A DNA stretch of 53,198 nucleotides, taken from assembly GCA_038215615.1 (NCBI GenBank), contig JBBQQR010000014.1, forward strand, positions 1 through 53,198, in the 5' to 3' direction. The position numbers were made by a program. Source of the stretch: Vulcanimicrobiales bacterium. GTDB lineage: Bacteria; Vulcanimicrobiota; Vulcanimicrobiia; Vulcanimicrobiales; Vulcanimicrobiaceae. This document shows, piece after piece, positions 1 through 6,000 of the stretch (position 1 is the stretch's first letter; every line of letters begins with the position of its first letter).

Positions 1-3000
1 CGTCTAGCTGTCCGTACCGTCCAATGATCGCGAGCGTCACGCCCCGCACCCCGTCGATCCAAACGTAATCGAAACGCTTGAGCGTATCGAACCCCGAGCC
101 CATGCTGAGCTCTTGCCAATACGCCGGCATTCCATTTGTTAATTTCGTCTGCTCGCGTTTCTTAAAAAACAGGCTGTCGACTTTGTCGCGAACTTCATTC
201 TCGGAGACCATCTCGAAGCCGTCCAGACTCCCGTCGTGATTTTCCATCGTGATCGTGATGGTGAGCTGTTCGCGCTTGCCGGGATTGGCAACCCATGCGG
301 CCATGACCGACGGCTGATCGAACCGGGCGGGGTCGTGCGGCGCCAGCGGCACACGGTAGAACTCGGGCGGGGCGGTAAATGCCATCGCCGGATCGGCGTA
401 TTGGTATGGATTCGGCGTCGGTGAGGCAGCAGGCGTCGCTTGCGCGAACTGGGCGAACGTTTGCGCCGGCATTGCCAACGCACACGTTAAGCAAGACGCT
501 ACAAGAAAAGCGAAGCGGTTCACTGCGACTCCAAAACTCCGGCTAGCGCCGGCATCGAGATTTCGTAACGGTATCCCACGTTTCGATGATCGTCATCGAA
601 CTCTTCGTGACGCACCTCAAGACCGAGCTCGCGCATTCGCGACGCCATAACGCGCGCGCCTACATCAAGCCCGTACTCGTCCTTGCGGCCGCAATCGATG
701 TAACGCAAGCGCAGCCTCGCCAGTTCCGCTTTCTTCTGTAGGCACATCCGGGCCGGGTCGAATTGCAGCCAGCGATCGAAAACCTCGCGATTGCACTCCC
801 CGGTCTCGCGCTCCATGGGCAGGTCGAGATCAAACGCTTTCGAACTGCGCGGCGAGTAGGCGGCCGCGTACCCCAGCATCTCGATCGTCGAGTACGAGGC
901 GGGCTGCCGCTTGTTTAGCCCTTCGAAATGACCCACGAACGCCTCGATATTCCAGTGATGCTTTTCCAGTGTCCGGTGCACATCCGGAAATGCCTTGGGA
1001 TGCGCGTATTCGAAGTACGAGTCGCCGCTGTGCGAGGCAAAAGCCGCGAACGTTCCGGGATACTGCATCGAAAGGTAGAGCGCGCCAAAACCGCCCGACG
1101 ACTTTCCGAAGACTGCCCGGCCGCCCTCGGCCGCGATCGTTCGATAGGTTGCGTCGACGTGTCCGATGACGTCGCGGACCGTGTAGGTCGCGTAGTCACC
1201 GTTGTGGATCGAGTCAACGTACTGCGATCCGCCAAGCCGGGTAAACCCGTCGACGATTACGAGAATCGCGGGCGGCATCCGTTTGGCAACAACGAGGCGA
1301 TCGATCCATTGAATGACGTTTGTTTCCCAAGGGCGCGCGCTCACGAGCGCCGCCGCGTCACCGGTATATCCGTGCAGGCAATACAACACCGGGTAACGCC
1401 GCGAGCCTTGCGCATCGTATCTGGGCGGCAAGTACGCAACGACGGGACGCTCGCAAGGGTCGCCAAGCGGATTGCCCTGAAGCGCCGGACTCTCGATGAA
1501 ATCGATGCGGACGTCACCCTTGAGGCCCAGTAAGCGCGCGAGCGGCGATTGTGTTTCGCTCATGCGCGCGATTTCGCCGCCAGGTCCGTCACTCACTACA
1601 ACGAAGGTCGGCGCATGATACGCGGCATCGGTTTGCGCAGCGCAATCGCTATCAACGTGATCACGATGGTCGGAATCGGCCCGCTCATCACGATTCCGCT
1701 CGTGCTCGCGCAGCTAGCTGGCCCGCTGGCGTTGATCGGTTGGATGGCCGGGGCGATCGTGGCGCTCTGCGACGGATTGGTTTGGGCGGAACTTTCCTCG
1801 CGCTACCCGGGAAGCGGCGGCACCTACGTCTACCTCCGAGAGGTTTTCGGGCGCGACCGCTGGGGACGACTGCTCGCCTTTCTTTTCAATTGGCAGTTCT
1901 TGCTTTATGCGCCGTGTTTGCTCGCAACCGGTTATATCGGCTTCGCAAGCTATTTCGGTTACCTCGATCCCGCGGCTACCTCACGGCCTTTTCAGATCGC
2001 AACGGCTGCTGTTGTCGGCGTTCTTACGGTCGTCTTCCTGTACCGTCGCATAACGGCGGTCGCCAAGATCGGATCTGTGCTTGCAGTCGTCGCGATTCTG
2101 ACGCTCGTGGCCGTCACCGCGGCGGCCTTTACGCACGCCGACCTCCATCGCGCCTTTACGCTCCCGCCGCATGCAACATTCGGAATCGGGTTCTTGGCGG
2201 GGCTGGGAGGGGCACTCTACATCACGCTGTATGATTACGTCGGCTACAGCGATGCGGCACTGCTCGGCGACGAAGTTCGTCAGCCGCAGCGGACTATTCC
2301 GTTGGCTATTGTCGGGTCGATTGCGATCGTGGCCGTACTCTACGTTTCGCTGCAAGTCGCCGTACTCGCGCACGGCGTCCCGGCGGGCAATCCGCAGTTC
2401 ATCGCGTCGACGATTGTCGAGCAATCTTGGGGAGCGACCACGGCCAAGATCGTTACCGTCCTCATCCTTTTGACGGCCTTTGCGTCGGTGTACGGAAATC
2501 TCGTCGGCTTCGCGCGCATTCCTTACGCTGCCGCGCGGGACGGAGAGTTCTTTAAACCGTTCGCACACTTGAACGAACGCGGACAATTCCCCGACGTCGC
2601 GCTGCTGGTCATCGGCGCAGCCGCGCTCGTGGCATGCCTGCTTCCCCTCGAACAGGTGCTGGCTGTGCTGACCGCCGGCATTGTCCTCATCCAAGGTGTT
2701 TCGCAAGTCGTCGCGGTGTTCGTCGCGCGGACGCACGGCGCTGCCCCCTTCAGGATGTGGCTCTTTCCTATTCCCGCTATCGTCGCGCTGGTCGGCTGGT
2801 TGTATGCATTTGCCTACACCGGCGCATTTGCAATAATCGTCGGCATCGGATGGCTTCTGGCAGGTGCCTGCGCCTATATCATCACCGCACGGGTTCAGCG
2901 CCGCTGGCCGTTCGCGGCCGCCATTCTTTTGGCATTCGTTTCTCTGCAGTCGGCGCCGGCGCGCGCTTACGCGTGGCCCGGAAGCGCCGTCGTTCAGCGT

Positions 3001-6000
3001 GACGGTTACCCGGTCTACACTATTGGCGGCAAGCCATTTTTCATCTATGGAGCGGCCTTCTTTTACGAGCGCGTTCCGCGCGCACAGTGGGAAGCTTCAC
3101 TTGCGCGTTACCGCGCACTTGGCATCAATACGATCGATCTGTACGTCATGTGGAACTGGCACGAAGTCCGCGACGGAGCGTTCGACTTTACGGGACGATC
3201 GAATGCGCGGCGCGATTTGACCGGTCTCCTCCGTTTGATCGACCGGATGGGGTTCAAGATCATCCTGCGCCCGGGTCCGGTGATTCGCAATGAGTGGCGC
3301 AACGGCGGCTATCCCGCTTGGCTGCTAAAACGCACCGAGTACGATATGCCGCTGCGCGATGTCTTGGAAGGGCGTTATCCCGCAACTGCAACGCTTCAAA
3401 ATCAACACTCCGACGATGCGGCAGCGCAATGGATGCACAATGCGACGCATATGCGGTATGCCGCCCGCTGGCTGAGGCGCGTCCTGCAAGCCGCCGCACC
3501 GTGGCGGCGAGACATCATCGCAATCGCGCTCGACGACGATCAGGGTGCGTATCTCGACAACCAGACATGGCCCGCGCCCCACTTTGCACAGTATCTCACC
3601 TTCCTAGGATCGGCCGTGCGCAGCAGCGTCGGCCTGCGCGTCCCTCTTTTCATCAACACCTACGAGATGAAAGTCACCGCATCGGCGCCGGTCTGGGCGT
3701 GGGGAAATTGGTATCAAAGCGACGCCTACAGCATCGGCGAACACGATCGCGCGCAGTTGGAATTTGCGACCGGTCTGATCGCGACGCAGCCGCACCTTCC
3801 GGTGATGATCAGCGAGTTCCAAGCCGGCTGGCTGCAGGGTGCCGACGAAGCGCGGCCGCGCCCCGCGGATCCGTCCAACACAACGCTTGCATTGAACACG
3901 ATGCTGCAGCAGGGCATGCACGGGGTCGTCAACTTTCCGGTGCAGGACACGATGAATCCGTCGGGCTGGGAAGCACCGTGGGCCAACGAGTTTTACTCCT
4001 GGGACGCCGCTCTATCGGTCCAGTTGACGCAACAGGGCCGCTGGCCGCCGACGCAGCGCTTCGGGAACCGGATTCACGCGCTGGGGCCGCTGCTCGCGCA
4101 AATGCACGTCAAAGCAGATGCCGCTATCGCCTACACAGCGAGCGCTTACAATCCGGCCAGTCTCACCAAGGATGATTTTTTCGCGATCGCGCAGGCCACG
4201 ATGGACGCGCAACGGAGTTGCCGAGCCGAGCGCGTCACATGCACGCTGATCGATCTGCGCTTTATTCTTCAGGCTGACCTCAAGCGCTACCCGGTGATCG
4301 AGATTCCGCCGGCTCCGCGAAATCTGGCTTTTATTTCTGCCGTTACAGACAAACTTGCCGCCTATCGCGCGGGCGGCGGCCAAATCGTCGCGGAACTCGC
4401 GAGCGCTATGATCCCGCACGCCGCTGCGGGGCGAATTCCCAATGCGGTGCTGCTAGTCAATCCGCCAGAGCGCTTCGCGATCCTGAGTGTCGTGAATTAT
4501 TCCACCGCCCCACAGCGCGTCGGCGGCGGCCTTCTCTGGGCGAACCGGCTGCGCGCGGCCGCGCCTGTGATCGTTGTACCCGCGCGCGACGCTGTGCTCG
4601 TTCCGATCAATGTTCCGAAGGCTCAGTTGCACAATGCGACGCAGTCGCCCGCAAACGTGCTGCGGCCGATATCCGGCGAACGCGTGCCGCTGCGCCGCGG
4701 CAGTTGGCTAACCGCCAATGGGCGCGATGTTTTTCAAGATGGGTATCCGACCGCGATCCTGGAGAACGCCTGGCTGCGGCTGATCGTGTCGCCGTGCGCG
4801 GGCGCCCGCGTGTTTGTCTTGGAAGACAAACGGTCGAAAGAGAATCTCTTTACGACGGCCGGAGGTTTTCGCGATGCGTGGTTCCCGCAGCTGCCTCCGT
4901 CAGGGCGCGACTATATCGGCCGGTACACGCATCCAATTGCCGCCGGCACGTTCAACCGCTGCTACGCACGACACGACGCTTCCAGCCTGCAAACGCGTTT
5001 CACCTATTTTGCGCCCGACGCCCCAACGCGCGGAGCGCTCTTCGAAAAGACTGTGTCGGTCGCACGGTTTGCACCGGTGATCGTCGTGAGATACCATGTC
5101 CGTTTCAATGCAGTAGCGGGCGAGCAGCCGCAGCAACTTACATCGTTCGCGGCGACCCCTGCCACGAAACTCGAGTCGCTCGAAAATGCCTATGGTCTCT
5201 ACGAACCCGAGAAAAACCGGGTCGTCATGGTCGCGTGGCCGGCTGCGGATGTGAAAGCCCACACGCTGGCTCAGCATCCGTCTGATGCGCTGCTCGTCCT
5301 GACGTTCTCGAGCGGCGGCACAAACGATCTGCGCATTGGAGTTAGGCGAGCGTTATCGCAGATTCAAGCGCAGGCAGCACTTGCGGAGTTCGCGAAATTG
5401 TCGAGCCTGCCGACACGGGGAAGTGGCGGAACGGTAGACGCAGCCGCCTCAAAAGCGGCCGGGCAACCCCCGTGAGGGTTCGAGTCCCTCCTTCCCTACC
5501 ACTCAAGGATCGGAGATGTATGCGCACTTTTTTGATAGCCGGCGCTTTTGTCGTCGCCTTATCGTTCGTCCCCCGGCCTGCCATGGCCGCCATGTGTGGC
5601 CCATCGGCTGACGTGGTCACGATCGCCAATAGGACCGTTTATAATTACAACGCGAAGCTGAGGAAGGGCGCGACAAAGATCGACAAGACCTACATTATGT
5701 CGATCGCGATTCTCGGCACATACGCGGAGGTAAACTTAGACTTTCCGCAAGGGCCGATATTCCAGTATTGGATCAAAAAAAGCGGCAACTGGGCGATGGC
5801 GGGATATCCGGCGCCAAAAGGCTGGCCCGCTTCCATGGCTACGAAGCTCGATAAGATGAGCGGCTTGACGTCTGCAGGCGGCAAACAGTGCGTTAATCCG
5901 AGCTGGAAGAACCGGTCAAGCTCCGGTTGATTGACCGGATGATTTTCGCGCCGGGAGCACTGGGCGGCACCGTCCGCGTTCCCGGCGACAAATCCATCTC

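What a model noticed while it worked through the whole genome (the two positions that open the first line are those of the whole stretch)
1615..5475. APC-family permease fused through a relic signal peptide to a GH35 exo-beta-glucosaminidase-like enzyme (1286 aa)
g01462 is one open frame of 1286 aa: a 12-helix amino-acid/polyamine (APC) permease (residues 1-430), a 13th hydrophobic helix that looks like a retained signal peptide (RRWPFAAAILLAFVSLQSAPARA/YA, about 430-455) and an 830-aa GH35 glycosidase closest to archaeal exo-beta-D-glucosaminidase GlmA. I read it as a tethered outside-hydrolase/inside-transporter machine: the GH35 part releases an amino sugar (glucosamine from chitosan-like oligomers) in the periplasm and the fused APC permease takes it up at once. 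New would be a covalent glycosidase-permease fusion, and an APC transporter for an amino sugar.
Evidence so far: pfam.tsv: AA_permease_2 6-400 (E 2e-34), Glyco_hydro_35 470-576 (E 4e-31) on one gene; Swiss-Prot: residues 460-642 35% to Pyrococcus GlmA, 468-571 49% to Thermococcus GlmA, 430-800 26% to Xanthomonas beta-galactosidase, 3-394 27% to SteT. Hydropathy finds 12 segments up to residue 405-425 and the extra segment printed in call 99. A 241-aa query across the joint (residues 330-570) matches end to end in open frames of 1328, 1269, 1068 and 1440 aa in 4 other family genomes (G082, G077, G047, G091), while in two one-contig genomes (G015, G049) the two halves match separate genes at distant places (permease 492/570 aa; GH35 869/1037 aa); 0 of 33 genomes of other families of the phylum have the j [...]
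(Added by a program. Inside this text positions count along the whole contig: contig position 1 is position 1 of the stretch shown here. "Call 12" and the like, gene names such as g00115 and contig names such as C1 are that model's own, and its searches are not shown. The text may have been shortened before it was handed on; [...] marks where a part breaks off. The agent that wrote the report below was given it as the finding of a first reader that could run no searches.)

Follow-up and report, generated by a model that had tools for sequence, protein, structure and literature searches.

The report
Permease–glycosidase fusion joined by signal peptide
One gene of a soil bacterium encodes a membrane nutrient importer followed by a sugar-cutting enzyme, joined by the enzyme's own export signal, which suggests the two act together to harvest an amino sugar outside the cell and import it.

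Summary
Window 1615-5475 (+) is one 1286-aa frame: a 12-helix APC permease, a short signal-peptide-like segment, then an 830-aa GH35 enzyme whose nearest solved relatives are the archaeal GlmA glucosaminidases.

The fusion is common in one Eremiobacterota family. A probe across the joint matched end to end in 123 of 301 phylum genomes, all in family f1.

The "relic signal peptide" reading is supported. Stand-alone permease orthologues end at ...QRxWPF. Unfused GH35 orthologues carry N-terminal signal peptides at the same aligned place and the same chromosomal site.

Tethering is not shown. The hydrophobic run is 9-17 aa, A449-x-A451 is at least 90% conserved, and the segment has pLDDT 43-52. 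I favour cleavage by signal peptidase I, giving a permease plus a free periplasmic enzyme.

The active site is non-canonical. Invariant D640-D641-D642 replaces the E-N-E of ENEYG. D641 corresponds to GlmA's amine-binding Asp178, and Asp642 replaces the acid/base Glu. Nucleophile E734 is kept.

There is new circumstantial support for an amino-sugar substrate. In 11 of 24 loci the stand-alone permease lies beside a NagB-II-like deaminase gene. Against this, 13 of 20 fused genomes lack that gene.

This is an undescribed architecture built from known families. Cleavage and substrate are untested.

The parts
1615..5475 (+). Whole fused gene, 1286 codons plus stop
   Evidence: Open frame. The N-terminus MIRGIGLR is conserved in fused homologues.
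1615..2895 (+). APC-superfamily permease domain, residues 1-427, 12 transmembrane helices (LAT/APA-like)
   Evidence: Pfam AA_permease_2 6-400, E 1.4e-33. The AF2 model shows helices from 7 to 427. Nearest solved proteins are BasC 6f2g at 2.9e-23, then xCT, GkApcT and LAT1.
2887..2913 (+). Native cytoplasmic tail of the permease, A425-R-V-Q-R-R-W-P-F433; it serves as the positively charged n-region of the joint
   Evidence: The 4 stand-alone permease orthologues that I read end with ...QRxWPF plus 2-15 residues. P432 and F433 are invariant and W431 is at least 90% conserved in 84 fused proteins.
2914..2967 (+). Signal-peptide-derived segment, residues 434-451: hydrophobic run AAAILLAFVSL, then QSAP-A449-R-A451. 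Proposed signal peptidase I site between A451 and Y452 (nt 2967/2968)
   Evidence: It aligns with the h and c regions of the N-terminal signal peptides of unfused orthologues. A449 and A451 are at least 90% conserved while 434-446 vary. The AF2 helix is only 432-444, with pLDDT 43-52.
2980..4104 (+). GH35-type TIM-barrel catalytic domain, residues 456-830
   Evidence: AF2 model with pLDDT 95.1 and pTM 0.94. Foldseek top hits are GlmA 8oug, 5gsl, 5gsm and 6jow, E 1e-28 to 1e-25. The profile aligns to GH35 beta-galactosidase 3d3a through the nucleophile.
3532..3540 (+). D640-D641-D642 at the C-terminal end of strand beta4, in place of the E-N-E of 'ENEYG' (acid/base position = D642; GlmA Asp178 position = D641)
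   Evidence: D641 and D642 are invariant and D640 is at least 90% conserved in 84 fused homologues; D640 is also at least 97% conserved in the wider 120-sequence set. 'DDDQ' occurs in 177 of 269 fetched proteins. Aligned to IDDEP of GlmA and ENEYG of 3d3a.
3814..3816 (+). E734 in 'SEFQAGW' at the end of strand beta7: catalytic nucleophile
   Evidence: Invariant. Aligned to 'cSEFwsgW' of 3d3a. The model has a strand at 730-736.
4105..5349 (+). Accessory domains of the enzyme, residues 831-1245: an alpha/beta domain, a small beta domain and a C-terminal beta-sandwich. Includes invariant C869 and C876
   Evidence: AF2 secondary structure. The second HMM stretch aligns to the GH42-like domains of GlmA. 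The Cys pair is invariant.
5350..5472 (+). C-terminal tail, residues 1246-1286: one helix, then a low-confidence Ala/Gly/Ser-rich end
   Evidence: pLDDT 42-58 for the last 30 residues.
520..1596 (-). Divergent neighbour: PF00756 'putative esterase', 358 aa, no signal peptide
   Evidence: Pfam E 1.9e-17. Its N-terminus was read. The esterase cluster lies next to the GH35 gene in 17 of the 20 mapped loci, including the window.
5472..5930 (+). Small downstream ORF (152 aa; the likely start is the Met at codon 17), with an N-terminal signal peptide and no family. Seen only in the window and in one genome of the same genus (G091)
   Evidence: cluster c18.
5927..7204 (+). aroA (EPSP synthase), a housekeeping neighbour
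   Evidence: TIGR01356 346 bits, above its cut-off.

Best explanation
This is a genuine, recurrent gene fusion of two proteins that are separate in related genomes: a LAT/APA-like APC permease and a Sec-secreted GH35-family exo-glycosidase.

The joint is a graft. The permease's own positively charged cytoplasmic tail (...ARVQRRWPF) replaces the n-region of the enzyme's signal peptide. The enzyme's hydrophobic h-region and A-x-A c-region follow. The permease ends inside the cell after helix 12, so this segment threads the enzyme domain into the periplasm as it is made (shown by anatomy and homology).

I infer that signal peptidase I then cuts after A449-R-A451. The gene would thus be a polyprotein giving, in 1:1 amounts and at the same spot, a permease with a short extra C-terminal helix and a free periplasmic enzyme.

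I further infer that the enzyme removes terminal amino-sugar-type residues from an oligosaccharide. Asp641 occupies the place of the amine-binding Asp178 of GlmA, and nucleophile E734 is retained. The permease would then import the product for catabolism by a kinase and a NagB-II-type deaminase.
For: Fusion is real and widespread:
- 85 of 120 top homologues carry both domains.
- The joint probe matched end to end in 123 of 301 genomes.

The joint is a graft:
- The 4 stand-alone permease orthologues that I read (56-59% identity to the window's permease) end at ...QRxWPF plus 2-15 aa, with no 13th helix.
- Unfused GH35 orthologues have N-terminal signal peptides whose AxA aligns with A449-A451.
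- Fused and unfused GH35 genes sit at the same chromosomal place: 12 of 13 fused loci with a called gene and 6 of 6 unfused loci show the rapZ / cofD-like / CBS-PALP / Cys-Met-PLP and esterase context in whole or part.

Export:
- The cytoplasmic loops are Arg-rich, as read in the sequence.
- The genome has Omp85 and three signal peptidase I genes.
- The cultured relative has a typical Gram-negative envelope (PMC9758169, passages).
- An invariant Cys869/Cys876 pair is present.

Cleavage:
- The uncharged run after WPF is 9-17 aa, median 12, in 65 parsed fused proteins.
- A.A lies at its end in 57 of 65, against 53% in shuffles.
- A449 and A451 are at least 90% conserved while 434-446 vary.
- AF2 gives only a 13-residue helix, with pLDDT 43-52.
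- The GH tree needs at least 15 fused/unfused changes among 119 rows, 13 of them forced by well-supported branches.
- Unfused P0063 starts 'MIRGIDLR' joined directly to the h-region, which is the permease deleted. The segment therefore works at once as an ordinary signal peptide.

Enzyme:
- AF2 pLDDT 95.1.
- Foldseek's best hits are GlmA.
- E734 aligns with the GH35 nucleophile; D641 aligns with GlmA D178 and D642 with E179. The roles of D178 and E179 come from PMC6566704 (passages).

Coupling:
- 11 of 24 stand-alone permease loci have a SIS gene adjacent, 9 directly upstream on the same strand. That gene scores best as NagB-II, GlmD or the GlmS isomerase domain, and matches PDB 8eol GlcN-6-P deaminase.
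- In G143 the locus is GH20 <-> SIS-permease-OMP.
- In the window's own genome the same locus reads S13-SIS-OMP without the permease.
- The own genome also has GH20, a NagA-like gene and a ROK kinase.
- The permease tree needs 3 or more changes, so the same pair of genes was joined or split repeatedly.
Against: - Cleavage is inferred from sequence features only. No signal-peptide predictor was available and there is no protein evidence.
- The AxA enrichment is modest (88% against 53%) because the region is Ala-rich.
- The acid/base Glu of clan GH-A is replaced by Asp642. GlmA's C101-G102 are R558-N559 here, both invariant. The chemistry and substrate may therefore differ from GlmA.
- The NCBIfam GlmA model scores 119 against a cut-off of 1500.
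- Only 7 of 20 fused genomes have a SIS orthologue at E<=1e-50, and none of the 9 in genus g4.
- 5 of 30 genomes with an unfused GH35 have no permease orthologue, so the enzyme can work without it.
- To my knowledge (recalled), no APC member is known to carry an amino sugar.
- The gene's neighbours, here and for the Acidobacteriota homologues, are housekeeping genes and not a polysaccharide-utilisation locus.
Confidence: 0.48

Rival explanations
1. Tethered machine. The 13th segment is not cut and works as a signal-anchor. The GH35 domain stays covalently attached on the periplasmic face of its permease, possibly docked on it as the SLC3 heavy chain sits on SLC7 transporters, and hands its product straight to the transporter.
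For: The frame is continuous in 123 genomes. The topology is N-in after 12 helices, with one further hydrophobic segment and then the ectodomain. Only about 5 residues separate A451 from the first confidently folded residue, so an uncut enzyme would sit directly on the membrane. The permease's nearest solved relatives are LAT-family proteins, the partners of glycosidase-like heavy chains in animals (HAT architecture from the abstracts of PMC7159911 and PMC7584034).
Against: The hydrophobic run is 9-17 aa (median 12), short for a stable anchor. The AxA is conserved although an anchor would not need it. The segment has the lowest confidence in the AF2 model, and pTM falls from 0.94 for the enzyme alone to 0.65 for residues 1-1200, so no confident packing is seen. 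Free secreted orthologues replace the fusion many times on the tree.
Confidence: 0.3
2. Hitch-hiking fusion without a shared substrate. The permease carries ordinary amino acids or amines. The large enzyme is fused behind it only to gain co-translational (SRP/Sec) export and co-expression, and acts on an unrelated glycan, possibly the cell's own envelope.
For: The permease scores as a generic amino acid transporter (TIGR00909 124.7 bits, SteT/BasC-like). The TM6 motif is like that of amino-acid-carrying LATs. 13 of 20 fused genomes lack the SIS deaminase. GH35 occurs without the permease in 5 of 30 genomes. The enzyme is nearly universal in the family (201 of 206 genomes have a match) and sits among housekeeping genes, as do its Acidobacteriota relatives.
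Against: The same two gene families were joined or split at least 3 times on the permease tree, which chance hitch-hiking does not predict. The stand-alone permease is repeatedly linked to an amino-sugar-phosphate deaminase-like gene and, in G143, to GH20. TM1 reads G-I-G-P-L where BasC and xCT have G-A-G-I-F.
Confidence: 0.15
3. Inactive ectodomain. With the acid/base Glu lost, the GH35 domain no longer hydrolyses anything. It serves as a binding, stabilising or trafficking module for the permease, as 4F2hc does.
For: Asp642 stands where every characterised clan GH-A enzyme has Glu (rule from PMC6566704, passages).
Against: The nucleophile E734, E560, Y510 and 155 positions of the enzyme part are at least 97% conserved over 120 homologues. 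The DDDQ motif itself is invariant in the fused set, which fits an active site under selection. Free secreted forms with no permease exist in the same family, and DDDQ homologues occur in other phyla, where a chaperone role has no partner.
Confidence: 0.05
4. Artefact: a mis-assembly or a missed stop or frameshift joins two neighbouring genes.
For: One relative (G287) has the two halves in different frames.
Against: The frame is open in the window, in 123 genomes and in 85 of the 120 best database homologues from several sources. In unfused genomes the two genes are far apart, not neighbours.
Confidence: 0.01

Closest known systems
[quoted passage not shown]
   Same: Best sequence and fold match. 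Same multi-domain plan: a TIM barrel plus GH42-like domains. Asp at the position of Asp178, which binds the C2 ammonium of GlcN. Tyr53 and Glu103 equivalents are kept (Y510, E560).
   Different: About 15% identity over the whole fold. The acid/base is Asp642, not Glu. C101-G102 are replaced by R558-N559. There is an extra C-terminal beta-sandwich. The protein is secreted and fused to a permease. It scores far below the NCBIfam equivalog cut-off (119 against 1500).
Heteromeric amino acid transporters of animals (SLC7 light chain + SLC3 heavy chain 4F2hc/rBAT)
   Same: A LAT-like 12-helix permease combined with one further membrane segment (N-in, C-out) and a large glycosidase-fold ectodomain.
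   Different: The link here is a peptide bond, not a disulfide. The ectodomain is GH35, not GH13, and keeps its nucleophile. The linking segment looks like a cleavable signal peptide. No confident docking is predicted. This is an analogy of architecture only; common descent is not implied.
Cytochrome b-c1 polyprotein FbcH of Bradyrhizobium (recalled from memory; two searches found no paper in the library)
   Same: A polytopic membrane protein followed in one frame by an internal signal peptide and a periplasmic domain. Signal peptidase separates the two.
   Different: That case joins two subunits of one respiratory complex. This one would join a transporter and a hydrolase, and cleavage here is unproven.
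Bacterial LAT-family transporters BasC and SteT
   Same: Nearest solved and characterised relatives of the permease part (6f2g, E 2.9e-23). Shared TM6 motif LYxYxG(W/Y).
   Different: About 27% identity. TM1 has G-I-G-P-L instead of G-A-G-I-F. No curated subfamily cut-off is reached. The substrate is unknown.
GH35 beta-1,2-glucosyltransferase IALB_1185 (PDB 7VKW and others)
   Same: Second-best fold match, with the best superposition over about 745 columns (TM 0.5-0.58, rmsd about 6 A). It shows that this GlmA-like branch of GH35 holds non-galactosidase activities.
   Different: 13% identity. Not secreted as a fusion. I did not compare its active-site residues.
E. coli frl system (APC permease FrlA with SIS-type deglycase FrlB; gene roles recalled)
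   Same: An APC permease paired with a GlmS-isomerase-like SIS enzyme for a sugar-amine compound. The FrlA model matches the permease at E 1.3e-17.
   Different: The FrlA score is 63.8 against a cut-off of 800. The SIS neighbour here scores best as NagB-II, GlmD or GlmS, and no glycosidase is part of frl.

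Membership tests
APC superfamily permease (Pfam AA_permease_2) | Profile match above the curated cut-off | tested here: met
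   116.9 bits against a cut-off of 27, residues 6-400.
APC superfamily permease (Pfam AA_permease_2) | Twelve transmembrane helices with broken TM1 and TM6 | tested here: met
   AF2 helices lie between residues 7 and 427, with breaks at 19-22 and 207-213. The hydropathy segments agree.
APC superfamily permease (Pfam AA_permease_2) | Transport activity and substrate | not testable with these tools
   Needs uptake assays.
LAT (SLC7-type) or APA subfamily | Score above the curated subfamily cut-off | tested here: not met
   TIGR00911 scores 97 against 701.8. TIGR00909 scores 124.7 against 556.8.
Glycoside hydrolase family 35 | Profile match above the cut-off | tested here: met
   PF01301 scores 115.5 bits against 27, but covers only profile positions 4-106 of 319. 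A family profile aligns to 3d3a over positions 36-391.
Glycoside hydrolase family 35 | (beta/alpha)8 barrel with the nucleophile Glu at the end of strand 7 | tested here: met
   E734 is invariant, lies in strand 730-736 and aligns with the SEF(W/Y)xGW Glu of 3d3a.
Glycoside hydrolase family 35 | Acid/base Glu at the end of strand 4 (N-E motif) | tested here: not met
   D641-D642 stand in place of N-E and are invariant in the fused set.
Exo-beta-D-glucosaminidase GlmA (NF041127 equivalog) | Score above the equivalog cut-off | tested here: not met
   119 bits against 1500, and only residues 467-573 match.
Exo-beta-D-glucosaminidase GlmA (NF041127 equivalog) | Asp before the acid/base residue, binding the C2 ammonium (Asp178) | tested here: met
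   D641 aligns with Asp178. Its role is taken from PMC6566704.
Exo-beta-D-glucosaminidase GlmA (NF041127 equivalog) | Remaining -1 subsite residues (Cys101, Gly102, Glu179) | tested here: not met
   R558, N559 and D642 occupy these positions.
Exo-beta-D-glucosaminidase GlmA (NF041127 equivalog) | Hydrolysis of chitosan oligomers to GlcN | not testable with these tools
   Needs an enzyme assay.
Sec-type (signal peptidase I) signal peptide | Positive n-region, h-region of about 7-15 hydrophobic residues, small residues at -3 and -1 | tested here: met
   RVQRR, then an 11-residue run, then A449-R-A451. In 65 fused proteins the run is 9-17 aa and A.A is present in 57.
Sec-type (signal peptidase I) signal peptide | Located at the N-terminus of the precursor | tested here: not met
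   It lies after 433 residues of permease. It is N-terminal in the unfused orthologues.
Sec-type (signal peptidase I) signal peptide | Actual cleavage | not testable with these tools
   No predictor or protein data were available. Three signal peptidase I genes are present.
Heteromeric amino acid transporter (SLC3/SLC7) architecture | GH13-type heavy chain disulfide-linked to the light chain | tested here: not met
   The ectodomain is GH35 and is peptide-linked.
Heteromeric amino acid transporter (SLC3/SLC7) architecture | Ectodomain and its membrane helix packed on the permease | tested here: inconclusive
   The single-chain AF2 model of residues 1-1200 has pTM 0.65, with pLDDT 43-52 for the linking helix. 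No coordinates were available to inspect.

The most novel reading that the evidence does not exclude
The segment is not cut. Eremiobacterota would then have a single-chain bacterial counterpart of the animal heteromeric amino acid transporters: a LAT-like permease permanently carrying a catalytically active glycosidase ectodomain that feeds its product, an amino sugar, directly into the transporter. This would be the first covalent hydrolase-permease channelling device, the first APC transporter for an amino sugar, and a GH35 enzyme using an Asp-Asp pair in place of the Asn-Glu acid/base motif.
Probability: 0.2. Interest if true: 0.85.

Novelty: new variant of a known kind. Interest (0 to 1): 0.62.

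Why it matters
Gene fusions are among the strongest sequence-only clues that two proteins work together. This one links an orphan branch of the APC transporters to an orphan branch of GH35 that carries an unusual D-D-D catalytic motif. Both occur in a widespread soil phylum that has a single cultured member.

If the coupling holds, it points to a substrate class (amino sugars) not known for APC carriers. It would also define a simple two-step periplasmic salvage route.

The joint is a natural case of a signal peptide working from inside a polytopic protein. It interconverted with ordinary N-terminal signal peptides at least 13 times in one bacterial family. That makes it a useful system for studying what decides cleavage versus anchoring.

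The architectural parallel with the animal SLC3/SLC7 transporters gives a testable bacterial analogue.

Tried and rejected
- **Complex prediction** of the permease (1-452) against the enzyme barrel (456-1000), with paired alignments: no verdict, score 0.00 against a mark of 0.32, controls not run. This says nothing either way.
- **Earlier notes of this scan:** none by place or by sequence.
- **Literature:**
  - No paper on a permease-GH35 fusion or on such proteins in Eremiobacterota.
  - None on an APC amino-sugar transporter.
  - The fbcH precedent could not be found in the library and is cited from memory only.
- **Internal translation start before the signal segment:** rejected. Codon 427 is GTT and there is no in-frame start with a plausible position.
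- **Tat signal** ('RRWPF'): rejected. The RR is not conserved (QRAWPF, QGAWPF, LEWPF in homologues), and the motif is the tail of stand-alone permeases.
- **Functional clue from neighbours of the fused gene:**
  - The conserved upstream genes are housekeeping: rapZ, cofD/yvcK-like, CBS-PALP and a Cys/Met PLP enzyme.
  - The adjacent esterase has no signal peptide.
- **Clue from neighbours of the ~1260-aa DDDQ homologues in Acidobacteriota** (70 loci): only housekeeping genes, namely ispD, spoU, ada, HAD, alr and lolA.
- **Direction of the fusion/fission events:** unresolved. The trees are FastTree, midpoint-rooted and without an outgroup, because my motif filter dropped the distant sequences (150 of 269 rows skipped).

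Full report
**1. Observation**

Window 1615-5475 (+) is one open frame of 1286 codons. The frame could start at TTG 1549, but the N-terminus MIRGIGLR is conserved in fused homologues (M1, R3 and R8 at least 90% in 84 sequences), so ATG 1615 is the start.

- Pfam places AA_permease_2 at 6-400 (E 1.4e-33) and Glyco_hydro_35 at 470-576 (E 5e-33).
The exo-beta-D-glucosaminidase model matches 467-573, GlmA-type 5gsl matches 460-643, and BasC, xCT and LAT1 match the permease.

**2. Anatomy**

An AlphaFold2 model of residues 1-1200, built on 84 fused homologues, has mean pLDDT 86.9 and pTM 0.65.

- It shows the APC helices between residues 7 and 427, with the usual breaks in TM1 and TM6.
- After them comes a helix of only 13 residues (432-444). 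Block pLDDT is 52 for 431-440 and 43 for 441-450, the lowest in the protein.

The enzyme part alone (456-1286, 88-sequence alignment) gives pLDDT 95.1 and pTM 0.94. It consists of:

- a (beta/alpha)8 barrel to about residue 830;
- an alpha/beta domain;
- a small beta domain;
- a short weak linker near 1005-1015;
- a C-terminal beta-sandwich to about 1245;
- a low-confidence tail.

Foldseek against the PDB ranks the four GlmA exo-beta-glucosaminidases first (E 1e-28 to 1e-25). The GH35 beta-1,2-glucosyltransferase IALB_1185 follows, then ordinary GH35 and GH42 galactosidases.

**3. The joint**

Three comparisons show what the 13th segment is.

(a) In genomes whose GH35 gene is not fused, a stand-alone permease orthologue exists at 53-60% identity by the genome search. 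The four that I read end '...ARAQRVWPF', '...VERWWPF' or '...AKREWPF' plus 2-15 residues, with no further hydrophobic segment. So R-x-W-P-F is the permease's own cytoplasmic tail. P432 and F433 are invariant in the fusions and W431 is at least 90% conserved.

(b) Unfused GH35 orthologues of about 775-870 aa begin with ordinary signal peptides. Their A-x-A aligns with A449-R-A451 of the window protein.

(c) No in-frame start codon precedes the segment.

The joint is therefore the enzyme's h- and c-regions grafted onto the permease tail, which supplies the positive n-region. APC permeases end in the cytoplasm, and the loops that this places inside are Arg-rich (sequence). The segment must therefore carry the enzyme outward.

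Other evidence fits an exported enzyme in a diderm cell:

- The genome encodes Omp85 and three signal peptidase I genes.
- The one cultured member of the phylum has a typical Gram-negative envelope (PMC9758169, passages read).
- The enzyme part has an invariant Cys869/Cys876 pair.

**4. Cut or tethered?**

No tool here predicts cleavage, so this is inference. Evidence pointing to cleavage:

- In 65 fused proteins that my pattern could parse, the uncharged run after WPF is 9-17 residues (median 12). That is signal-peptide length, not anchor length.
- A.A lies at its end in 57 of 65, against 53% in composition-preserving shuffles.
- In the 84-sequence alignment, A449 and A451 are at least 90% conserved while positions 434-446 vary freely.
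- The segment is the least confident part of the model, and pTM drops from 0.94 to 0.65 when the permease is added. No packing of the enzyme or its helix on the permease is predicted.
- The segment has repeatedly served as a plain N-terminal signal peptide (section 6).

I put cleavage at roughly 60% and a permanent tether at roughly 30%. A recalled precedent for the former is the Bradyrhizobium cytochrome b-c1 polyprotein. I could not find it in the library.

**5. Distribution**

- Of the 120 best database homologues of the enzyme part, 85 carry both Pfam families. They are 47-80% identical to the window protein.
- Where a source names them, they are called 'amino acid permease' from Baltobacteraceae, Vulcanimicrobiaceae, Rubrimentiphilum or 'Eremiobacteraeota'.
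- In 301 genomes sampled from the phylum, a 241-aa probe across the joint matched end to end in 123. All are in family f1, where 201 of 206 genomes have some match. Two more (G075, G128) cross the joint partially.
- Other families gave only weak partial matches (f3 5 of 22, f15 1 of 1, f17 1 of 1) or none.
- Five of the 123 are unpublished genomes (G177, G245, G247, G263, G275). Without them the figure is 118 of 293.

**6. Evolution**

I fetched 18-kb stretches around 14 fused and 6 unfused GH35 genes, and mapped them together with the window's first 14 kb.

- My crude ORF map found the gene in 13 of the 14 fused loci. L029 gave none.
- 12 of those 13 fused loci and all 6 unfused loci show, in whole or in part, the same upstream context. 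This is rapZ, a cofD/yvcK-like gene, a CBS-PALP enzyme and a Cys/Met PLP enzyme, then one or two divergent PF00756 esterases (17 of the 20 mapped loci, counting the window, have the esterase).
- The window starts inside the esterases.
- Fused and unfused genes are thus positional orthologues.

Of 30 genomes with GH-only matches that I examined:

- 23 have a stand-alone permease orthologue elsewhere on the chromosome (24 loci, because G290 has two);
- 5 have none at E<=1e-60, or only 29% identity (G195, G249, G202, G118, G158);
- G097 proved to be fused;
- G287 is a fused gene broken by a frameshift inside the signal segment.

Trees (FastTree):

- A tree of the enzyme part (119 rows, 82 fused and 37 unfused; 150 of 269 fetched proteins were left out as fragments or ambiguous) needs at least 15 changes of state, 13 forced by well-supported branches.
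- A tree of the permease part (92 fused, 24 stand-alone) needs 3.
- Both trees are midpoint-rooted without an outgroup, so the direction of change is open.

Some unfused proteins are clearly deletion products of a fusion. P0063 begins 'MIRGIDLR', the permease N-terminus, joined directly to the hydrophobic run. P0078 keeps 'LPFALAV'.

**7. The enzyme's active site**

Over 120 homologues, 155 positions of the enzyme part are at least 97% conserved. From the profile alignments:

- 'mlSEFqagW' aligns with 'mcSEFwsgW' of the Bacteroides GH35 galactosidase 3d3a. E734, in model strand 730-736, is therefore the nucleophile.
- 'LDDDQGAY', directly after strand 634-638, aligns with 'vENEYGAF' of 3d3a and 'IDDEP' of GlmA.
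- In GlmA, Glu179 is the acid/base, and the preceding Asp178 binds the C2 ammonium of glucosamine in place of the usual Asn. The D178N mutant is inactive (PMC6566704, passages).

In this family the Asp178 equivalent is present (D641), but the acid/base is Asp642. GlmA's Cys101-Gly102 are Arg558-Asn559, both invariant.

'DDDQ' occurs in 177 of 269 fetched proteins. These include ~1260-aa non-fused homologues, found mainly in Acidobacteriota, with a few in Verrucomicrobiota, Elusimicrobia, Armatimonadota and other phyla.

This is a distinct GH35 subfamily. It is not a GlmA orthologue: NF041127 scores 119 against a cut-off of 1500.

**8. Substrate and pathway**

New circumstantial evidence for an amino sugar comes from the stand-alone permease.

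- In 11 of its 24 loci a SIS-domain gene lies adjacent. In 9 it is directly upstream on the same strand, and in 2 it is convergent.
- That gene scores best as the GlmS isomerase domain (2e-43), NagB-II (4e-30) and GlmD (1e-19), all below the equivalog cut-offs. Its best solved match is the GlcN-6-P deaminase 8eol.
- These SIS-linked permeases fall in all three stand-alone clades of the permease tree.
- In G143 the locus is GH20 hexosaminidase <-> SIS - permease - CarboxypepD_reg outer-membrane protein - unknown.
- In the window's genome (C4) and in G043, G091 and G208, the locus reads S13 peptidase - SIS - outer-membrane protein with no permease between. G248 reads SIS - outer-membrane protein; its S13 gene was not matched in the stretch held. 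It looks as if the permease had moved to the GH35 gene.
- The window's genome also has GH20, a NagA-like gene (218 bits against a cut-off of 225.65) and a ROK kinase.

Against a general link:

- Only 7 of 20 fused genomes have a SIS orthologue at E<=1e-50, and none of the 9 in genus g4.
- The enzyme exists without the permease in 5 genomes.
- Its neighbours, here and in Acidobacteriota, are housekeeping genes. That would also fit an enzyme acting on the cell's own envelope glycans.

**9. Verdict and comparison**

The 'tethered outside-hydrolase / inside-transporter machine' remains possible. The less exotic reading is better supported: a polyprotein whose halves are separated by signal peptidase and then cooperate.

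The nearest known things are:

- GlmA, by fold and by the amine-binding Asp;
- BasC and SteT, for the permease;
- the animal SLC3/SLC7 heteromeric transporters, as an architectural analogy only (abstracts of PMC7159911 and PMC7584034);
- the recalled cytochrome b-c1 polyprotein.

Searches of the paper library found no description of a permease-GH35 fusion or of an APC amino-sugar carrier. Public records call these proteins simply 'amino acid permease'.

I class it as a new variant of known kinds. Its interest lies in four things: the functional link it implies, the D-D-D active site, the behaviour of an internal signal peptide, and the frequent fusion and fission.

Noticed in passing
L051 (G287:C6:235611-239837), about 2700-2830: In one relative, the permease and GH35 halves are adjacent but in different frames. 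The frame shifts by one base inside the signal-peptide c-region ('WPFLLAPLLVLASPIPVS' continues in the next frame as '...HAAGAPGWSSWNAS'). This is either a recent pseudogene or a sequencing error.
   Followed up: partly
P0063, P0065, P0078 (database homologues): Some unfused GH35 proteins start with the permease's first residues joined directly to the signal-peptide core (P0063: 'MIRGIDLR' + 'PIALLLAVLLV...'). P0078 keeps 'LPFALAV'. These look like in-frame deletions of the whole permease from a fused ancestor.
   Followed up: partly
G000:C4:60000-77000 (L069), 6375-13488: In the window's own genome, a NagB-II-like SIS gene sits between an S13 D-Ala-D-Ala carboxypeptidase and a 980-aa CarboxypepD_reg/beta-barrel outer-membrane protein plus a 496-aa unknown. 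In unfused relatives the permease orthologue lies between the SIS gene and the outer-membrane gene.
   Followed up: partly
G000:C13:12202-15525 (L006), 379-3147 (-): A second long APC protein in the same genome: a 922-aa frame with the permease at residues 444-895 and a 440-aa N-terminal part with no Pfam match. The start may be over-called.
   Followed up: partly
P0120 (1025 aa): A signal-peptide-bearing GH35 homologue of this subfamily with a C-terminal HSP20/alpha-crystallin domain (E 1e-15). This is an odd combination for a secreted enzyme.
   Followed up: no
L089-L166: ~1260-aa DDDQ-type GH35 proteins are conserved in many Acidobacteriota (Acidiferrales, Terriglobia) and a few other phyla. 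They keep a stable housekeeping neighbourhood (ispD, spoU, phosphoribosyltransferase, ada, HAD, alr, lolA), which suggests a core cell function and not a nutrient-acquisition locus.
   Followed up: partly
G000:C1:42718-44626: Three signal peptidase I genes lie in tandem on the minus strand.
   Followed up: no
window 5472-5930 (+): A small secreted protein (signal peptide MRTFLIAGAFVVALSFVPRPAMA) with no family lies directly after the fused gene. A homologue was seen only in one genome of the same genus (G091).
   Followed up: no
L059 (G097:C115:27440-31732) and G233:C1:1449872-1451005: G097 has the fused gene in an open frame of 1741 aa, much longer than usual. G233 has another APC paralogue (30% identity) in a 1044-aa frame. 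I did not examine what the extra parts are.
   Followed up: no
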